Assembly (NCBI RefSeq): GCF_009914755.1
Contig: NC_060947.1
Origin: the human T2T-CHM13v2.0 reference genome, Homo sapiens
Reading direction: 5' to 3' (one strand)
DNA: 64,000 nt
A program made the position numbers and the translations under genes. This document shows positions 18,583-22,323 of the stretch, piece by piece (within the stretch, counting starts at the first letter, position 1; every line of letters starts with the position of its first letter). The notes below the pieces were generated by a model. The model did no database searches. It had not been told where the DNA came from and saw only the letters and a program-made list of their open reading frames with translations.

Positions 18583-19282
18583 GGTGTCTGTATATTCTTT
18601 TATGTTTTCTATGGTGACAACCATATCAGCTATAAATAATGACAGTTTTGTCTTTTCCTTTCCAATCTTTATGCCTTTATTTTTCTTGTCGTACTGAGAT
18701 GACCAGGACATCTAGTACAATGATGACAGCATGCATCTGTGTCTTGTTGTGTATTTTAGAGGAAACACCACTAACTTTTCCCTATTAAGAATGATACTGT
18801 ATTTGCTATAGATTTCCTACGGGTTTTATCAGGTTAAGCAAGTTCCATCCTATTACTCTATACTAAGAGGCTTTTATTTTTTTAATAATGAAAGGGTGTT
18901 GAATTTTTACCAAATGCCTTTTCTGTTTCTTATGATAATTATATGTTTTTTCTCCAATAATCTGATATGTGGTAAATGACATTTATAGATTTTCCTCATG
19001 TTAGACCATCTTTGCATTTCTTGTATAAACACAACTTGGTCATGGTCTTTCATTTTTTATACAGGTTGGTGAACAAAAGTTTGGAATTTTGCAACTGTGT
19101 CCATGAGTAAAATTGGTCTTTTCCTTTCTCAGGCTGTTCTTATTGGCTTTTGGCATTAAGGTTCTGCTGGTATAGAATGACTCAGAGTGTTCCCTCTTTT
19201 ATAATATTCTGGAAGATGCTGTATAAGTTTGGAATGATTGGTTTGGTAGAACTTCTGCAAAACCATCTTGTCTAGTGTTTTC

Positions 19283-20295
19283 CTTTTTAATATTGAATTA
19301 GTGTTAAACTTATAAATTAAAATATTTTCAAAATTGTAAATAAGAAGGTTGAAATTTGCTTCCATGTTTATTTTATAAGCTTTATGCTTGAAATGGCTAC
19401 ACACAAATCCTGAGCAAGACTTTTTTTTTTTTTTCTGAGCAAGACTTTTTAATGATGCATTCTTCAAATTCTTAACAGTCGCCATCCATAAATGTCTTTT
19501 TTTGTACAAGTAGGTGATAAAATATTTAAAGCCAATTTTTAAATGTTTCAAAGATATTTAACAATTGGAATTATATCTAACAGCTTTTCTTTTTGTTTCA
19601 CTGACAAGTATATTGTTAAAACTTCTCATGATGATGTGAGTAGATTTCAAATCCAGTTGAACGCTTTCATATTAACAATTTCAAAATAATGATGAAGCTC
19701 TTATTTGCAGAACATGCATCATTATTAGAACCATCACCCTGCAGCTAGCTTGGATACCATTAAAAGGGCTCATCAGCTGCAAACGGATTAAAGTATCTGA
19801 TACTCGGGAAGACAGAGTTTCAGGGTTTCTACCTGGAGCTACACCCTCAGGAAGCCCCTCCTTGGCCTCCCTGCACCCAGTCCCATCCCAACCAGTCACA
19901 TCTTGGGCTGTGCGTGGTGTTTCTTGGAAACTGGAACACAGACTCCTCCAGCAGCTCCACAGGTCCCTTGTCCTCAATGAGCAGAAGACTACAGGAGCTG
20001 GCTACTGAAGAGGCTGTCCAAGTAATAGAGCACCTTCTTGGCCCTGCTTAGCACATTTACTGCAGAGCTGGATGCTACTTATTTGTGCTCACCACCTTCA
20101 GGGACTGCAGAGAGATTTGTCAGACCCTACTTCACTAAGGGCCACCCTCTAAGGATCTCCAGAAGAGGCTGCCCATAGAGAGAAGTGGCCTGCCTAGGGT
20201 CTCCACTTCCTCAGGTCCTACCCGGACACCTCTAGGGCTGAGGGGATCAGTATCTCTTCACCTGCCTGTAATCCACATACCAAGTGGAAGAATCT
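19283..20295 (-). pseudogene. INTS15: Decayed INTS15 (C7orf26) copy: 5' flank, first 64 codons (19902-20092), then non-coding sequence
   Basis: Minus frames give VLSRAKKVLYYLDSLFSSQL and IEDKGPVELLEESVFQFP..AQPK versus recalled INTS15 ALSAAKEVLYHLDIYFSSQL..IVDKGPVELLEEFVFQVPKERSAQPK; interrupts contiguous L1ME sequence. Confidence 0.85.
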
Positions 20296-20518
20296 GCCTG
20301 CTATTTTTTGTTTGTTTGTTTGTTTGTTTTGGCGGGAAGAGTTTTAACTACTGCTGTAATTCCTTTAGTAGCTATGGAACTGTTGAGGATTTCTTTTTCT
20401 TCTTGAGTCGATTTTGGTAAGATAACAGTTTTCTAGGAGTTGGTCCATTTTGTCTGCATTTTCAAATTCATTGGCATAAAGTTTCCTTTTTATTCTGTGC
20501 TGTGTATGAACTGTAACA

Positions 20519-20749
20519 ATGTCTCCTTTTTCATTACTGATATTGGTTATTTGTGCCTTCTCACTTTTTTTCTTGATCAATCTCACCAGAGGTTTATCTA
20601 TTTTATTAGTCTTTTCAAAGAACCAACTTTTGGCTTTGTTGCTCCTCTCTATTGTATCTTTGTTTTCTATTTCTTTAATTTCTGCTCTTATCTTTTTTGA
20701 TCTCCTTCCTTCCACATTTTTTGGGTTTATTCTGTTGTTCTTTTTCTAA
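20519..20749 (+). CDS. KANTR: KANTR integral membrane microprotein, 76 aa
   Basis: ATG with A at -3, TAA stop, almost all hydrophobic (MSPFSLLILVICAFSLFFLINLTRGLSILLVFSKNQLLALLLLSIV...FFGFILLFFF); sequence and length match my recollection of human KANTR; the nearby ACTG1 and U7 pseudogenes fit that locus. Confidence 0.8.
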   Translation: MSPFSLLILVICAFSLFFLINLTRGLSILLVFSKNQLLALLLLSIVSLFSISLISALIFFDLLPSTFFGFILLFFF

Positions 20750-22323
20750 TTTAACTGGACATTGAGCTCATTAGTTTTCATTCTTTCCCATTTTCTAATT
20801 TGTGCATTTAAGGATATAATTTCCCTCTAACTCCTGCTTCTCCATAAGTTTAGATATGTAGTATTTTCATTATTGCTCAGTTATAAGTACTTCATTTCTA
20901 TCAAGGTTACTTCTTTGACCTGTAAGTTATATAGAAATGTGTTTTTAGATTTCCAAATGTTTGGGGATTTAAAATTTTATCTCTTTGTTATTGAAATCTG
21001 TCTTAATTGCATTATGGTCAGAGGATGTGGTTTGTGTGACAACAACTCTGAAATTTTTTAGACTTGTTTTATGGCTTAGTATGTGACCAATATTTTTGAA
21101 TGCTTCCTGTGTGCTAATTTATAAGAATGTGTGTTCTCTAATTGTTGAATACAGAGATCTACATATGTCTATTATCAAGTTTGTGAACTATTGTTCAATT
21201 TTTACTTACCTATACTGATTTTTTTGGTCATTATCTACTGATAATTGAAAGAGGTGCGTTAATGTTCAACTGTAATGGTGGATTTGGCAATTTCTCCTTG
21301 TAATTCTATCTCGTTTCTTGCTTTATATATTTTGAGGGTGTTCATTAGGAATATTCAAATTAAAAATTGTTATATATTCCTGATAAATATGTAATGACCC
21401 TCTCTATTCCTGATAATGCATTTTTCTTTGAAACCTATTTTATCTTATATTAATGTAGTAACACAAACTTTTCTTGTTGGGATTTGTGTGGTATATAATT
21501 TTCCATCCTTTTACTTTTGAGCATTTTCATGCCATTATGTTTAATTATATCTCTTGGAAACAACATATAACTGGACCTTTTAAAAAATCTAATCTGATTA
21601 TCTCTTTTGGTTGGCAAGTTTAGTCTGTTTACATTTACTGTGATGTATTTGGGCTTGTTTCTACCATCATACTTTTTTATTTCTGTTTACCATCACTACC
21701 TTTTCTGTGCTTCATTTTCTCTTTTCTCGCCTGCTTTTTTAGTTTTGAGATTTGTTTTCTTATTCAATTTTTTTCCTCCCTATTTTTAAATTTTTTTCTA
21801 TTCTTTCTGTGGTTATCCTTGATGTTTTCCATATGTGTTTAACTTATAAAGTCTAAAGTTAAACAATATTTTAGCCCCCTTCTTAAAGAATGCAGGAAGC
21901 TTAGAAACCTTCAACTCTAGTCATTCCTCTCCTGATCACATACTGTTGTTTTCAAATATGTTAGTTTGTTCCTTTTTATAAACCTCACAATTTTACATCA
22001 TTGTCAGTGTTATTTTATATAGACAGTGTTTGTTTGGACTTACATGCATACATTCTTGTATCACACATCATCCTTTGGGATCATTTTCTTTCATTATGAA
22101 TATAGTGTTTAAGTGAGTTTTTTTTTTTTTTAGTACAGGTCTCTTGATGTTAAATTCTTCCAGTCTTTCTTATATGTAAATGTCTTTATTTTATCCTCAT
22201 TCTTAAAAGATAGTTTGTTACAGGTATTTTTACTCAACACTTAGAATATATGGTTCCATTCTCTTTTGGCTTTGAGATGTCTGTTGCTATTAAGAAGTCG
22301 ACTATCAGACTAATTGCTGGTTT

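What the first reader, a model, noticed from the sequence alone, without database searches (positions are those of the whole stretch)
19283..20295. INTS15 exon-1-only retrocopy just upstream of the KANTR ORF, probably supplying its terminal-exon 5' part in antisense
Seen: a 1-kb insert splits L1ME (…CCATCTTGTCTAGTGTTTTC | … | TTTTGGCGGGAAGAGTTTT) with decayed TSD-like flanks. On the minus strand, 191 nt from a GTG (20092) to CAGCCCAAG (19902) match the first 64 codons (192 nt) of INTS15. Homology then stops: instead of RLNSLQEL the sequence continues ATGTGACTGG, GC-rich and then AT-rich, like a first intron. Inference: this is a retrocopy of an unspliced or prematurely terminated exon 1-intron 1 RNA, notable because Integrator itself terminates promoter-proximal transcripts. 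On the + strand the insert offers acceptors (GCTCTTATTTGCAG 19710; CCATCACCCTGCAG 19744). The KANTR coding exon would then be a mosaic of antisense INTS15 (5'UTR), antisense L1 (CDS) and possibly L2 (polyA).
Basis: partly seen in the sequence, partly recalled or inferred. Interest (0 to 1): 0.8.

Follow-up and report, generated by a model that had tools for sequence, protein, structure and literature searches.

The report
Transposon copy carrying INTS15 exon 1
The INTS15-like stretch upstream of the KANTR reading frame is one decayed copy of an old dispersed repeat, most likely a cut-and-paste DNA transposon that once picked up the first exon of INTS15, and read in reverse it supplies the start of KANTR's last exon.

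Summary
Window 20092-19902 (-) is a decayed copy of the 64 codons of INTS15 exon 1: 121/162 identical to the chr7 gene, E 7e-24. Codon 64 is the exon end. The 1-kb insert splits a LINE ORF2 fragment. RefSeq's KANTR exon starts inside it, at 19711.

This is not a one-off retrocopy of an exon 1-intron 1 RNA. Only about 216 nt match INTS15, from 5 nt before the ATG to 19 nt into intron 1. The AT-rich remainder, 19289-19849, matches nothing in 60 kb around INTS15.

The whole 1-kb arrangement recurs at 32 or more other places in the genome. A 1168-position family profile hits all of them. Every exon-1-like copy found outside chr7 has the same downstream sequence.

Across copies the two ends form a 14-nt inverted repeat, consensus CAGTGCTTCCCAAC. 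The ends are sharp, carry no poly(A), and 8-bp flank duplications show in 3 of 4 copies with both ends located. The exon-1 peptide is conserved down to sharks, so the gene is the donor.

Best reading: a non-autonomous hAT-like transposon family that captured the 5' end of INTS15. How this 3'-incomplete copy arrived is unresolved. I found no published report of the capture.

The parts
19284..20296 (-). One copy of a roughly 1.17-kb dispersed repeat family, a hAT-like non-autonomous DNA transposon. The profile match runs 20283->19289 and covers family positions 40-986 of 1168. The last 180 or so family positions are missing or reduced to a short remnant.
   Evidence: Family profile hit, E 8e-193. 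Pairwise matches to 16 loci at 62-72%.
20284..20296 (-). Probable 5' terminal motif of the element, CAGATTCTTCCAC.
   Evidence: MAFFT places it on the 5' ends of five other copies. By eye it matches that alignment's consensus CAGAGCCTTCCAA at 10 of 13 positions. Against the inverted-repeat motif used, an ungapped scan scored it no better than 8/13.
20093..20283 (-). Upstream part of the family ('part A'), G+C-rich. It may derive from the INTS15 5'UTR or promoter, but this is not shown.
   Evidence: Shared with L006 (z 9.4, 0 of 200 shuffles reach the score) and L013 (z 4.9). No significant match to the chr7 locus beyond about 25 nt upstream of the ATG.
19883..20097 (-). INTS15-derived segment. 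The exon 1 CDS equivalent is 20092-19902, with ATG now GTG and three in-frame stops in the window copy. It also takes in a few nt of 5'UTR and about 19 nt of intron 1. The outer limits are extrapolated from the family profile.
   Evidence: window 20056-19899 against L007:1501-1661. (family positions 194-409 match chr7:6709452-6709667, E 2.6e-52).
19289..19849 (-). Transposon-specific part ('X'), AT-rich. It is absent from the INTS15 locus.
19410..19450 (.). Later micro-insertion inside X: a run of 9 T on the + strand (19426-19434, 14 A in all on the - strand counting those inside the repeat copies) between two perfect 16-nt direct repeats.
   Evidence: family D7. Absent from the other eight copies aligned.
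20292..20309 (-). Left copy of the LINE stretch that occurs on both sides of the insert, AAAAAATAGCAGGCAGAT. It is a candidate target-site duplication. An 8-bp reading gives ATAGCAGG.
   Evidence: Read by eye; not detected.
19265..19283 (-). Right copy of the same LINE stretch, GGAAAACACTAGACAAGAT. Part of it, GGAAAACACTA, can instead be read as the remnant of the element's 3' end.
20304..20331 (+). (TTTG)n microsatellite, which reads (CAAA)n on the - strand. It grew out of the A-rich stretch of the LINE at the junction.
20336..20760 (-). LINE ORF2 fragment lying between the endonuclease and reverse transcriptase regions, on the upstream side of the insert. Its antisense strand holds the KANTR CDS.
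19100..19264 (-). The same LINE ORF2 fragment, continuing on the downstream side of the insert.
19697..19711 (+). Splice acceptor GCTCTTATTTGCAG|A of the KANTR terminal exon, which begins at 19711. It is the antisense of a conserved family stretch.
   Evidence: Hub annotation. The sense-strand CTGCAAAT is exact in 4 of 9 aligned copies.
20519..20749 (+). KANTR coding sequence: 76 codons, hydrophobic, antisense to LINE ORF2.
   Evidence: hub annotation.

Best explanation
Window 19284-20296 (-) is one decayed copy of an old interspersed repeat about 1.17 kb long. The family is most likely a non-autonomous DNA transposon of the hAT kind.

Its founder already carried a piece of genomic DNA from the 5' end of INTS15. 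That piece is a few nt of 5'UTR, all 192 nt of the exon 1 coding sequence, and at least 19 nt of intron 1. It may extend to a CpG-island piece of about 480 bp. The founder was then copied by transposition to at least 33 places.

Shown:
- The family exists with a fixed architecture.
- Homology to INTS15 is restricted to that one piece.
- The family has inverted-repeat ends and lacks poly(A).
- The gene is older than the repeat.

Inferred:
- The hAT assignment.
- The capture mechanism (copying of host DNA into an element during repair or replication).
- The age, roughly early placental mammals. This rests on 60-77% pairwise identity and on the element sitting inside an old LINE.

This copy landed in a LINE ORF2 fragment. 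It has since lost, or never had, most of the last 180 family positions.

It has no function of its own. Read on the + strand, its antisense sequence supplies the acceptor at 19710 and the first 580 or so nt (5'UTR) of the KANTR terminal exon.
For: Family and architecture:
- A profile of 1168 positions, iterated from one complete copy, hits 34 of 34 database entries (33 distinct places) at E <= 1e-3. The window is hit at E 8e-193.
- A search with parent exon 1 as DNA and as protein found 16 further distinct places. All 16 have the X part directly downstream.
- 30 of 33 places keep at least part of the INTS15 piece. The other 3 start downstream of it. None joins part A to X without it.

Limit of the INTS15 homology:
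- The family profile matches chr7 only at 6709452-6709667, E 2.6e-52. Nearly all consensus-to-gene differences sit at the gene's CpG sites.
- X has no hit in 60 kb of the locus.
- The chr4 copy continues GTGCGGCCAG..CGGTGGGG against the intron start GTGCGGCCTGAGACGGTCGGG.

Transposon features:
- Five 5' ends and ten reverse-complemented 3' ends align to one 14-nt consensus, CAGTGCTTCCCAAC.
- The 3' ends are sharp and lack poly(A) in about ten copies.
- 8-bp flanks match 6/8 (L038), 5/8 (L037) and 5/8 (L032), against a control mean of 2.33.
- The flanks are recurrently CTAGA- or CTATAG-like.

Direction of transfer:
- The 64-aa exon 1 peptide is 75-92% identical in marsupial, platypus, bird, frog, coelacanth and shark INTS15.
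Against: - repeat finder did not list terminal inverted repeats within single copies among its top 25 pairs (L038, L037, L013). The inverted repeat is seen only across copies.
- The automatic flank test was weak. Six pairs scored 1, 1, 2, 2, 5 and 6 of 8, against a control mean of 2.33 and maximum of 5. Several of those ends were probably mislocated. L013, whose ends are well located, gives 1/8 in register.
- No autonomous partner or transposase was sought or found.
- No repeat library could be run, so the family has no name.
- The window's own copy has no clear 3' end and only a 4/8 flank match under the 8-bp reading.
- The origin of part A and of the G+C-rich spacer is unproven.
- The divergence calculation was lost with the script machine, so the age is a rough inference.
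Confidence: 0.78

Rival explanations
1. Same family, different arrival. The window copy is a 'retro-DNA': an L1-mediated (target-primed) retrocopy of an RNA transcribed across a family member in the INTS15-sense direction. It is not a product of transposase.
For: - Both flanks align to the same 15-19 nt of the LINE, which uninterrupted relatives L052 and L057 carry once. This duplication is longer than 8 bp and starts A-rich.
- The insert ends in A5 (19284-19288).
- The last 180 or so family positions, including the 3' inverted repeat, are missing.
- The phenomenon is described: 748 insertion events in primates lacking TIRs, with poly(A) and longer duplications (PMC11195612, abstract read).
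Against: - The insert begins within 0-5 nt of the family's 5' terminus. For a retrocopy that would be a coincidence.
- The right-hand stretch AAAAAGGAAAACACTA aligns about as well to the family's 3' end ..GAAAAGGTTGGGAAGCACTG. That reading implies an internal deletion instead.
- CACTAGAC at the right junction fits the family's usual CTAGA-type target.
- The A run is only 5 nt.
- The flank repeat is not detected by the repeat finder.
Confidence: 0.3
2. The family consists of L1-made retrocopies of an ancestral INTS15 transcript that read from exon 1 into an intron 1 then containing X and ended there. X was later lost from the gene.
For: - The copies are unspliced at the exon 1 donor.
- X holds an AATAAA.
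- The G+C-rich then AT-rich profile resembles a CpG-island exon followed by intron.
Against: - The inverted-repeat termini are shared by both ends.
- The common 3' end is sharp and has no poly(A).
- The common 5' end lies about 190 nt upstream of the ATG and has no match in the gene.
- Short 8-bp flank repeats are present.
- X is absent from 60 kb of the locus.
- Every exon-1-like copy found outside the gene runs on into X rather than an exon 2 sequence. Only exon 1 was used as query.
Confidence: 0.06
3. One reading: a single retrocopy of an unspliced or prematurely terminated INTS15 exon 1-intron 1 RNA.
For: - Exon 1 homology and an unspliced donor.
- The insert is bounded within a LINE.
Against: - At least 32 other places have the same architecture.
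- Only about 216 of 1008 nt match INTS15.
- The rest is family-specific.
Confidence: 0.02
4. Reverse direction: INTS15 exon 1 was itself derived from a copy of this repeat.
For: Only the shared 216 nt. Selection on the exon could keep it alignable while the flanks decay.
Against: - The exon 1 peptide is conserved in cartilaginous fishes at 75-77%. That is far older than a repeat whose neutral copies are still 60-77% alike.
- The gene locus holds no other part of the element, although neutral copies elsewhere remain recognisable over about 1 kb.
Confidence: 0.02

Closest known systems
HelibatN3 and other Helitrons of vespertilionid bats that captured gene 5' ends (PMC4224331; passages read)
   Same: [quoted passage not shown] For NUBPL this reached about a thousand copies. 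That paper found captures of 5' ends to be the most frequent and the most amplified. Copies there also donate splice sites and exons to host transcripts.
   Different: - Here the carrier has 14-nt inverted-repeat ends and 8-bp flank repeats, which is hAT-like and not rolling-circle.
- The copy number is tens, not thousands.
- The family is old and present in human rather than restricted to bats.
- Capture of the promoter is not shown.
Non-autonomous hAT (MER1/Charlie-type) DNA transposon fossils of the human genome. Features recalled from memory, not from a call.
   Same: - Ends beginning CAG.
- Short inverted repeats.
- 8-bp duplications at TCTAGA-like targets.
- No poly(A).
- 60-77% pairwise identity, typical of old families.
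   Different: The internal part contains a host gene's first exon. I could not name the family or find its autonomous partner.
Transduplication: Pack-MULEs in rice (mentioned in PMC4224331) and Turmoil-1 in C. elegans (PMC2572040, abstract)
   Same: A TIR transposon carries a fragment of a protein-coding gene.
   Different: - The host is a mammal and the superfamily is different.
- The 2008 abstract calls transduplication of coding genes 'unknown of in animals' before its own case.
SVA_F1 elements carrying MAST2 exon 1. Recalled, not from a call.
   Same: A CpG-island first exon of a host gene became the 5' part of a mobile family.
   Different: In SVA_F1 the exon is spliced onto a retroposon at RNA level. 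Here the donor is unspliced and the carrier is a DNA transposon.
Retro-DNAs (PMC11195612, abstract)
   Same: This may describe how the window copy itself arrived: transposon sequence without TIRs, a longer duplication and an A tail.
   Different: - The window copy starts at or next to the 5' TIR.
- Its tail and duplication are too decayed to decide.

Membership tests
L1-made retrocopy (processed or semi-processed pseudogene) of INTS15 | Homology to the parent transcript along its length | tested here: not met
   About 216 of 1008 nt match. The rest is absent from 60 kb of the locus.
L1-made retrocopy (processed or semi-processed pseudogene) of INTS15 | Poly(A) tail and 7-20-nt target duplication | tested here: inconclusive
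   A5 only. The 15-19-nt flank overlap is seen by alignment to LINE relatives but not by the repeat finder.
hAT-type non-autonomous DNA transposon | Terminal inverted repeats | tested here: met
   At family level, 5 five-prime ends and 10 reverse-complemented three-prime ends share the consensus CAGTGCTTCCCAAC. The repeat is not listed within single copies. In the window copy only the 5' motif is seen.
hAT-type non-autonomous DNA transposon | 8-bp target-site duplication | tested here: inconclusive
   6/8, 5/8 and 5/8 in L038, L037 and L032, but 1/8 in L013. The automatic test gave a mean no better than control for 4 of 6 pairs. The window copy gives 4/8 (ATAGCAGG against ACACTAGA, by eye).
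hAT-type non-autonomous DNA transposon | Sharp common ends without poly(A) | tested here: met
hAT-type non-autonomous DNA transposon | Related autonomous element encoding a hAT transposase with the same ends | not tested
   Searches with the terminal 200 or so nt found only self and one local duplicate. No repeat library was available.
Transposon-captured gene fragment (transduplication) | Internal segment homologous to a host gene that predates the element | tested here: met
   (E 2.6e-52). (peptide conserved down to sharks).
Transposon-captured gene fragment (transduplication) | The segment lies between element-specific sequence in the copies | tested here: met
   30 of 33 places keep at least part of the segment in the same position. 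None joins the flanking parts without it.
Transposon-captured gene fragment (transduplication) | Captured from genomic DNA (contains intron sequence) | tested here: met
   19 nt of intron 1 at profile level. GTGCGGCC.. in the chr4 copy. Anything beyond that is not demonstrable.
LINE-1 ORF2 (host of the insertion) | Protein homology to endonuclease/RT-bearing ORF2 and high copy number | tested here: met
   The subfamily (L1ME) was not testable. Pfam on short pieces was negative.

The most novel reading that the evidence does not exclude
In an early mammal, a hAT-like transposon picked up the CpG-island 5' end of INTS15: promoter-proximal DNA, start codon, first exon and splice donor. It scattered tens of copies of this 'portable first exon' through the genome.

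This would be an old, human-genome counterpart of the Helitron captures known from bats, and a rare case of transduplication by a TIR transposon in mammals.

Some copies may still act. The chr4 copy keeps its CpGs, 63-65% G+C and an open frame, as an unmethylated island would. The X-linked copy gives KANTR its last-exon acceptor and places 191 nt antisense to INTS15 exon 1 in the KANTR 5'UTR.
Probability: 0.3. Interest if true: 0.6.

Novelty: new member of a known kind. Interest (0 to 1): 0.42.

Why it matters
- It corrects a tempting story. A retrocopy of an Integrator subunit's own prematurely terminated transcript turns out to be an ordinary repeat copy.
- Any INTS15 'pseudogene' or 'TE-derived exon' call at these 30 or more places, or at INTS15 exon 1 itself, has a single cause.
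- If the capture is unreported, it adds a mammal-wide example of gene-fragment capture by a TIR transposon. That process is documented mainly in plants, in fungi and in bat Helitrons.
- It explains the make-up of the KANTR terminal exon: antisense transposon (with the antisense INTS15 piece), then antisense LINE holding the coding frame.

Tried and rejected
- X was searched against the INTS15 locus by BLAST, by a nine-copy profile and by the full family profile. Nothing turned up beyond exon 1 plus or minus about 20 nt.
- Part A compared with other copies by BLAST gave no colinear hit. A shuffle-tested local alignment supported only L006 and L013. Seven of 11 copies had z below 2, and L004 (2.3) and L015 (1.9) were marginal.
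- Inverted-repeat search within single copies listed no terminal pair.
- Direct-repeat search for the window's flank duplication did not list it.
- Genome searches with the family's terminal 200 or so nt, done to find a progenitor or autonomous relative, returned only self and one 91% local duplicate.
Pfam on seven ORF pieces gave no LINE domain. A protein search settled the LINE identity instead.
- The divergence-from-consensus calculation never returned, and the script machine was then lost.
- A cat protein named ADGRL3 isoform that matched exon 1 is a full INTS15 with an insertion. It is not a chimera with the chr4 copy.
- Literature searches found no report of this capture:
  - C7orf26 + transposon: 1 paper, not titled on transposons and not opened.
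  - INTS15 + pseudogene: 5 papers, judged by title only.
  - transduplication + hAT + mammal: 15 papers, 12 listed.
  - hAT-Charlie + captured + host gene: 10 papers, 7 listed.
  - KANTR + KDM5C: 10 papers, 8 listed.
  Repbase and Dfam notes are outside that library.

Full report
**What is in the sequence**

On the minus strand, 20092 (GTG) to 19902 (..CAGCCCAAG) is 191 nt. A whole-genome search with the insert finds the INTS15 locus on contig C7, at 6709491-6709651, 75% identical, E 3e-18. A pairwise BLAST gives 121/162 identical, E 7e-24, for window 20056-19899 against L007:1501-1661.

In the gene, the ATG is at L007:1467 and codon 64 (AAG) ends at 1658, followed by GTGCGG. A 449-aa INTS15 protein from the protein library is colinear with the genomic translation for residues 1-64 only (62/64 identical) and then continues RLNSLQEL. 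The window copy is dead: GTG replaces ATG and three stops fall in frame.

**The host of the insertion**

The sequence on both sides of the insert belongs to one highly repeated element. The left flank has 2745 first-look candidates in the genome, and 40 of 40 scored match at 68-80%.

A 126-aa stop-to-stop ORF piece on the minus strand (20368-20745) has 28 relatives at E <= 1e-5. Three carry endonuclease domains and four carry reverse transcriptase. This places the flank between the two domains of a LINE ORF2. Pfam on seven short pieces showed no LINE domain. I could not verify the subfamily name L1ME.

Uninterrupted relatives from the same genome (L052, L053, L054, L057) read straight through the junction.

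**The rest of the insert is not intron 1**

The same genome search showed that window 19432-19840 matches many dispersed places at 65-79%. Neither BLAST with nine copies nor a profile built from them finds this part ('X') anywhere in 60 kb around INTS15 (chr7:6690001-6750000), even at E <= 10.

**It is a family**

When eight X copies were aligned with 150-nt flanks, several carried INTS15-like sequence just upstream of X. Seven of the 16 X-found loci hit parent exon 1 by BLAST at E < 0.05.

Going the other way, I searched the genome with parent exon 1 as DNA and as protein. This returned 16 further distinct places. All 16 have X directly downstream, starting at X-profile positions 2-25 in most. 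Outside the chr7 gene, every exon-1-like copy found is followed by X.

A profile iterated from one complete copy (L038, 1101 nt) reached 1168 positions. It hits all 34 database entries at E <= 1e-3. These are the window plus 33 loci, two of which (L015 and L030) are the same place, so 33 distinct places.

- The window copy covers positions 40-986 (20283->19289), E 8e-193.
- Many copies start at positions 2-56 and end at 1105-1167.
- 30 of the 33 places keep at least part of the INTS15 segment. The three that do not (L010, L014, L019) begin downstream of it.
- None joins the upstream part to X without it.

The search tool scores only its best candidates, so 33 is a lower bound.

**How much is INTS15**

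The family profile matches the chr7 locus once: positions 194-409 against 6709452-6709667, E 2.6e-52. That runs from 5 nt before the ATG to 19 nt into intron 1. In that alignment nearly all differences between the family consensus line and the gene sit at the gene's CpG sites, read TG or CA in the family. This is what decay of copies from a gene-like source predicts.

The best-kept copy (chr4, L027) is 83% identical over 205 nt. It continues after codon 64 as GTGCGGCCAG..CGGTGGGG against the gene's GTGCGGCCTGAGACGGTCGGG.

In L027 the G+C-rich block (63-65%) spans about 500 nt, from about 150 nt upstream of the ATG to about 130 nt past the exon, inside 25-30% G+C surroundings. The captured piece may thus have been a CpG-island fragment of about 480 bp. 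That is inference: beyond about 25 nt on either side no homology to the present human gene is detectable.

**Direction of transfer**

The 64-aa peptide is 91-92% identical in marsupials and 88% in platypus. It is 89-92% in birds, 80-84% in most frogs (88% in Ascaphus) and 91% in coelacanth. In chimaera, sharks and rays it is 75-77%.

The exon is far older than a repeat whose neutral copies are still 60-77% alike. The gene locus also holds no other part of the element. The gene gave the piece to the repeat, not the reverse.

**What kind of repeat**

- About ten copies share one sharp 3' end..GGTTGGGAAGCACTG, with unrelated sequence and no poly(A) after it.
- Several share one 5' end, CAGAGCTT(T/C)CC...
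- Five 5' ends and ten reverse-complemented 3' ends align to a common 14-nt consensus, CAGTGCTTCCCAAC, and differ beyond it. This is a terminal inverted repeat.
- Four copies have both ends well located. Three of them have matching 8-nt flanks:
  - L038: CTCTATAG / CTCTTGAG, 6/8.
  - L037: TTCTATAA / TGCTACAG, 5/8.
  - L032: TTCTAGAC / TTTGAGAA, 5/8.
  - L013: 1/8 in register.
- Mismatched pairs average 2.33 of 8, with 5 the maximum, reached in 2 of 30.
- Flanks are recurrently CTAGA- or CTATAG-like.

From memory, not from a call: ends starting CAG, about 14-nt inverted repeats, 8-bp duplications and TCTAGA-like targets are the marks of hAT (MER1/Charlie-type) elements.

Against this reading, the repeat finder lists no terminal inverted pair within single copies. 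The automatic flank test was good for only 2 of its 6 pairs. No transposase-bearing relative was found. No repeat library was available to name the family.

**How this copy arrived**

This is unresolved. The insert starts with CAGATTCTTCCAC (20296-20284). MAFFT places this on the 5' ends of five other copies, and by eye it matches their consensus at 10/13. The copy lacks family positions 987-1168.

Reading 1: a normal transposon insertion.
- The target was the LINE's CACTAGAC-like site.
- The 8-nt flanks ATAGCAGG and ACACTAGA match 4/8. Each matches a LINE relative at 7/9.
- Most of the 3' end was later deleted.
- The stretch AAAAAGGAAAACACTA aligns to the family's last 20 nt with one gap.

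Reading 2: a 'retro-DNA', a target-primed retrocopy of a transcript of a family member.
- Both flanks align to the same 15-19 nt of the LINE: left AAAAAATAGCAGGCAGAT, right GGAAAACACTAGACAAGAT.
- The insert ends in A5.
- Such events are described in primates (PMC11195612, abstract).

The start at the element's very end favours reading 1. The long overlap favours reading 2. I put them at roughly 60:30. The decayed overlap is not picked up by the repeat finder.

**KANTR**

RefSeq's terminal exon starts at 19711 (hub annotation), just after ..GCTCTTATTTGCAG. This lies in the antisense of X. The sense-strand CTGCAAAT is exact in 4 of the 9 aligned copies, so the acceptor is a latent feature of the family.

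The exon then runs through the following, in order:
- the antisense INTS15 piece (19902-20092);
- part A;
- the (TTTG)n stretch at 20304-20331;
- the antisense LINE, where the 76-codon frame at 20519-20749 is open.

The mosaic picture of the exon is right. Its first component is a transposon, not an INTS15 retrocopy.

The longest near-perfect antisense match to INTS15 mRNA is 30 nt with 2 mismatches (19931-19960), including 19 perfect. Any trans effect is speculation.

**Comparison with what is known, and novelty**

The closest described case is the Helitron captures of bats. [quoted passage not shown] In that study 5' ends were the most often captured and the most amplified parts (PMC4224331, passages read).

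The kind of gene segment is the same here. The carrier (TIR, hAT-like), the lineage and the age differ.

Five literature searches found no report of an INTS15/C7orf26 fragment inside a transposon. Repbase and Dfam notes are outside that library, and the family itself is very likely already in repeat libraries.

I rate it a new member of a known kind, of moderate interest.

**Limits**

- The script machine was lost, so divergence from consensus and the age were not computed.
- The age given (about that of early placental mammals) rests on pairwise identities and on the nesting inside an old LINE.
- No other vertebrate genome could be searched.

Noticed in passing
L027/L035 = G000:C4:64955145-64955349 and about 250 nt on either side: The chr4 family copy is much better kept than the others: 83% identical to INTS15 exon 1, against 70-78% elsewhere. 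Many CpGs are retained, G+C is 63-65% over about 500 nt within 25-30% surroundings, and an open frame of 93 aa has no stop. It looks like a copy that stayed an unmethylated CpG island. It could be an active promoter or first exon, or it could have been converted by the gene.
   Followed up: partly
window 19410-19450: Two perfect 16-nt direct repeats (CTGAGCAAGACTTTTT on the + strand) lie either side of a run of 9 T. The feature is absent from the other eight aligned copies. It is a young micro-event inside the old repeat, either a poly(A)-only insertion with its duplication or a slippage.
   Followed up: partly
L063/L064 = G000:C4:161763165 and 161772113: The complete copy L038 has a 91% identical duplicate of its first 199 nt 9 kb downstream. 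This is a later local duplication of the region, not a transposition.
   Followed up: no
L015/L030 = G000:C2:63842205-63842521: In this copy the INTS15 part (family positions 203-344) lies inverted relative to the adjoining X part (431-631). This is a small inversion within the element.
   Followed up: no
P0024 (protein library): A 498-aa cat protein named 'adhesion G protein-coupled receptor L3 isoform X26' is a full-length INTS15 with an inserted stretch. The source's name is wrong, and the protein is unrelated to the chr4 repeat copy.
   Followed up: yes
window 19697-19710 and family alignment: The KANTR acceptor is the antisense of a well-kept family stretch: CTGCAAAT is exact in 4 of 9 copies. 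Other copies of this family in introns, in the same orientation, could offer the same cryptic acceptor.
   Followed up: no
window 19931-19960: A 30-nt stretch has only 2 mismatches to INTS15 exon 1, 19 nt of it perfect. It is present in antisense in the KANTR 5'UTR.
   Followed up: no
window 20304-20331: A (TTTG)n microsatellite sits at the left junction. By alignment with uninterrupted LINE relatives it is an expansion of the LINE's own A-rich stretch. It is not a tail of the insert.
   Followed up: partly
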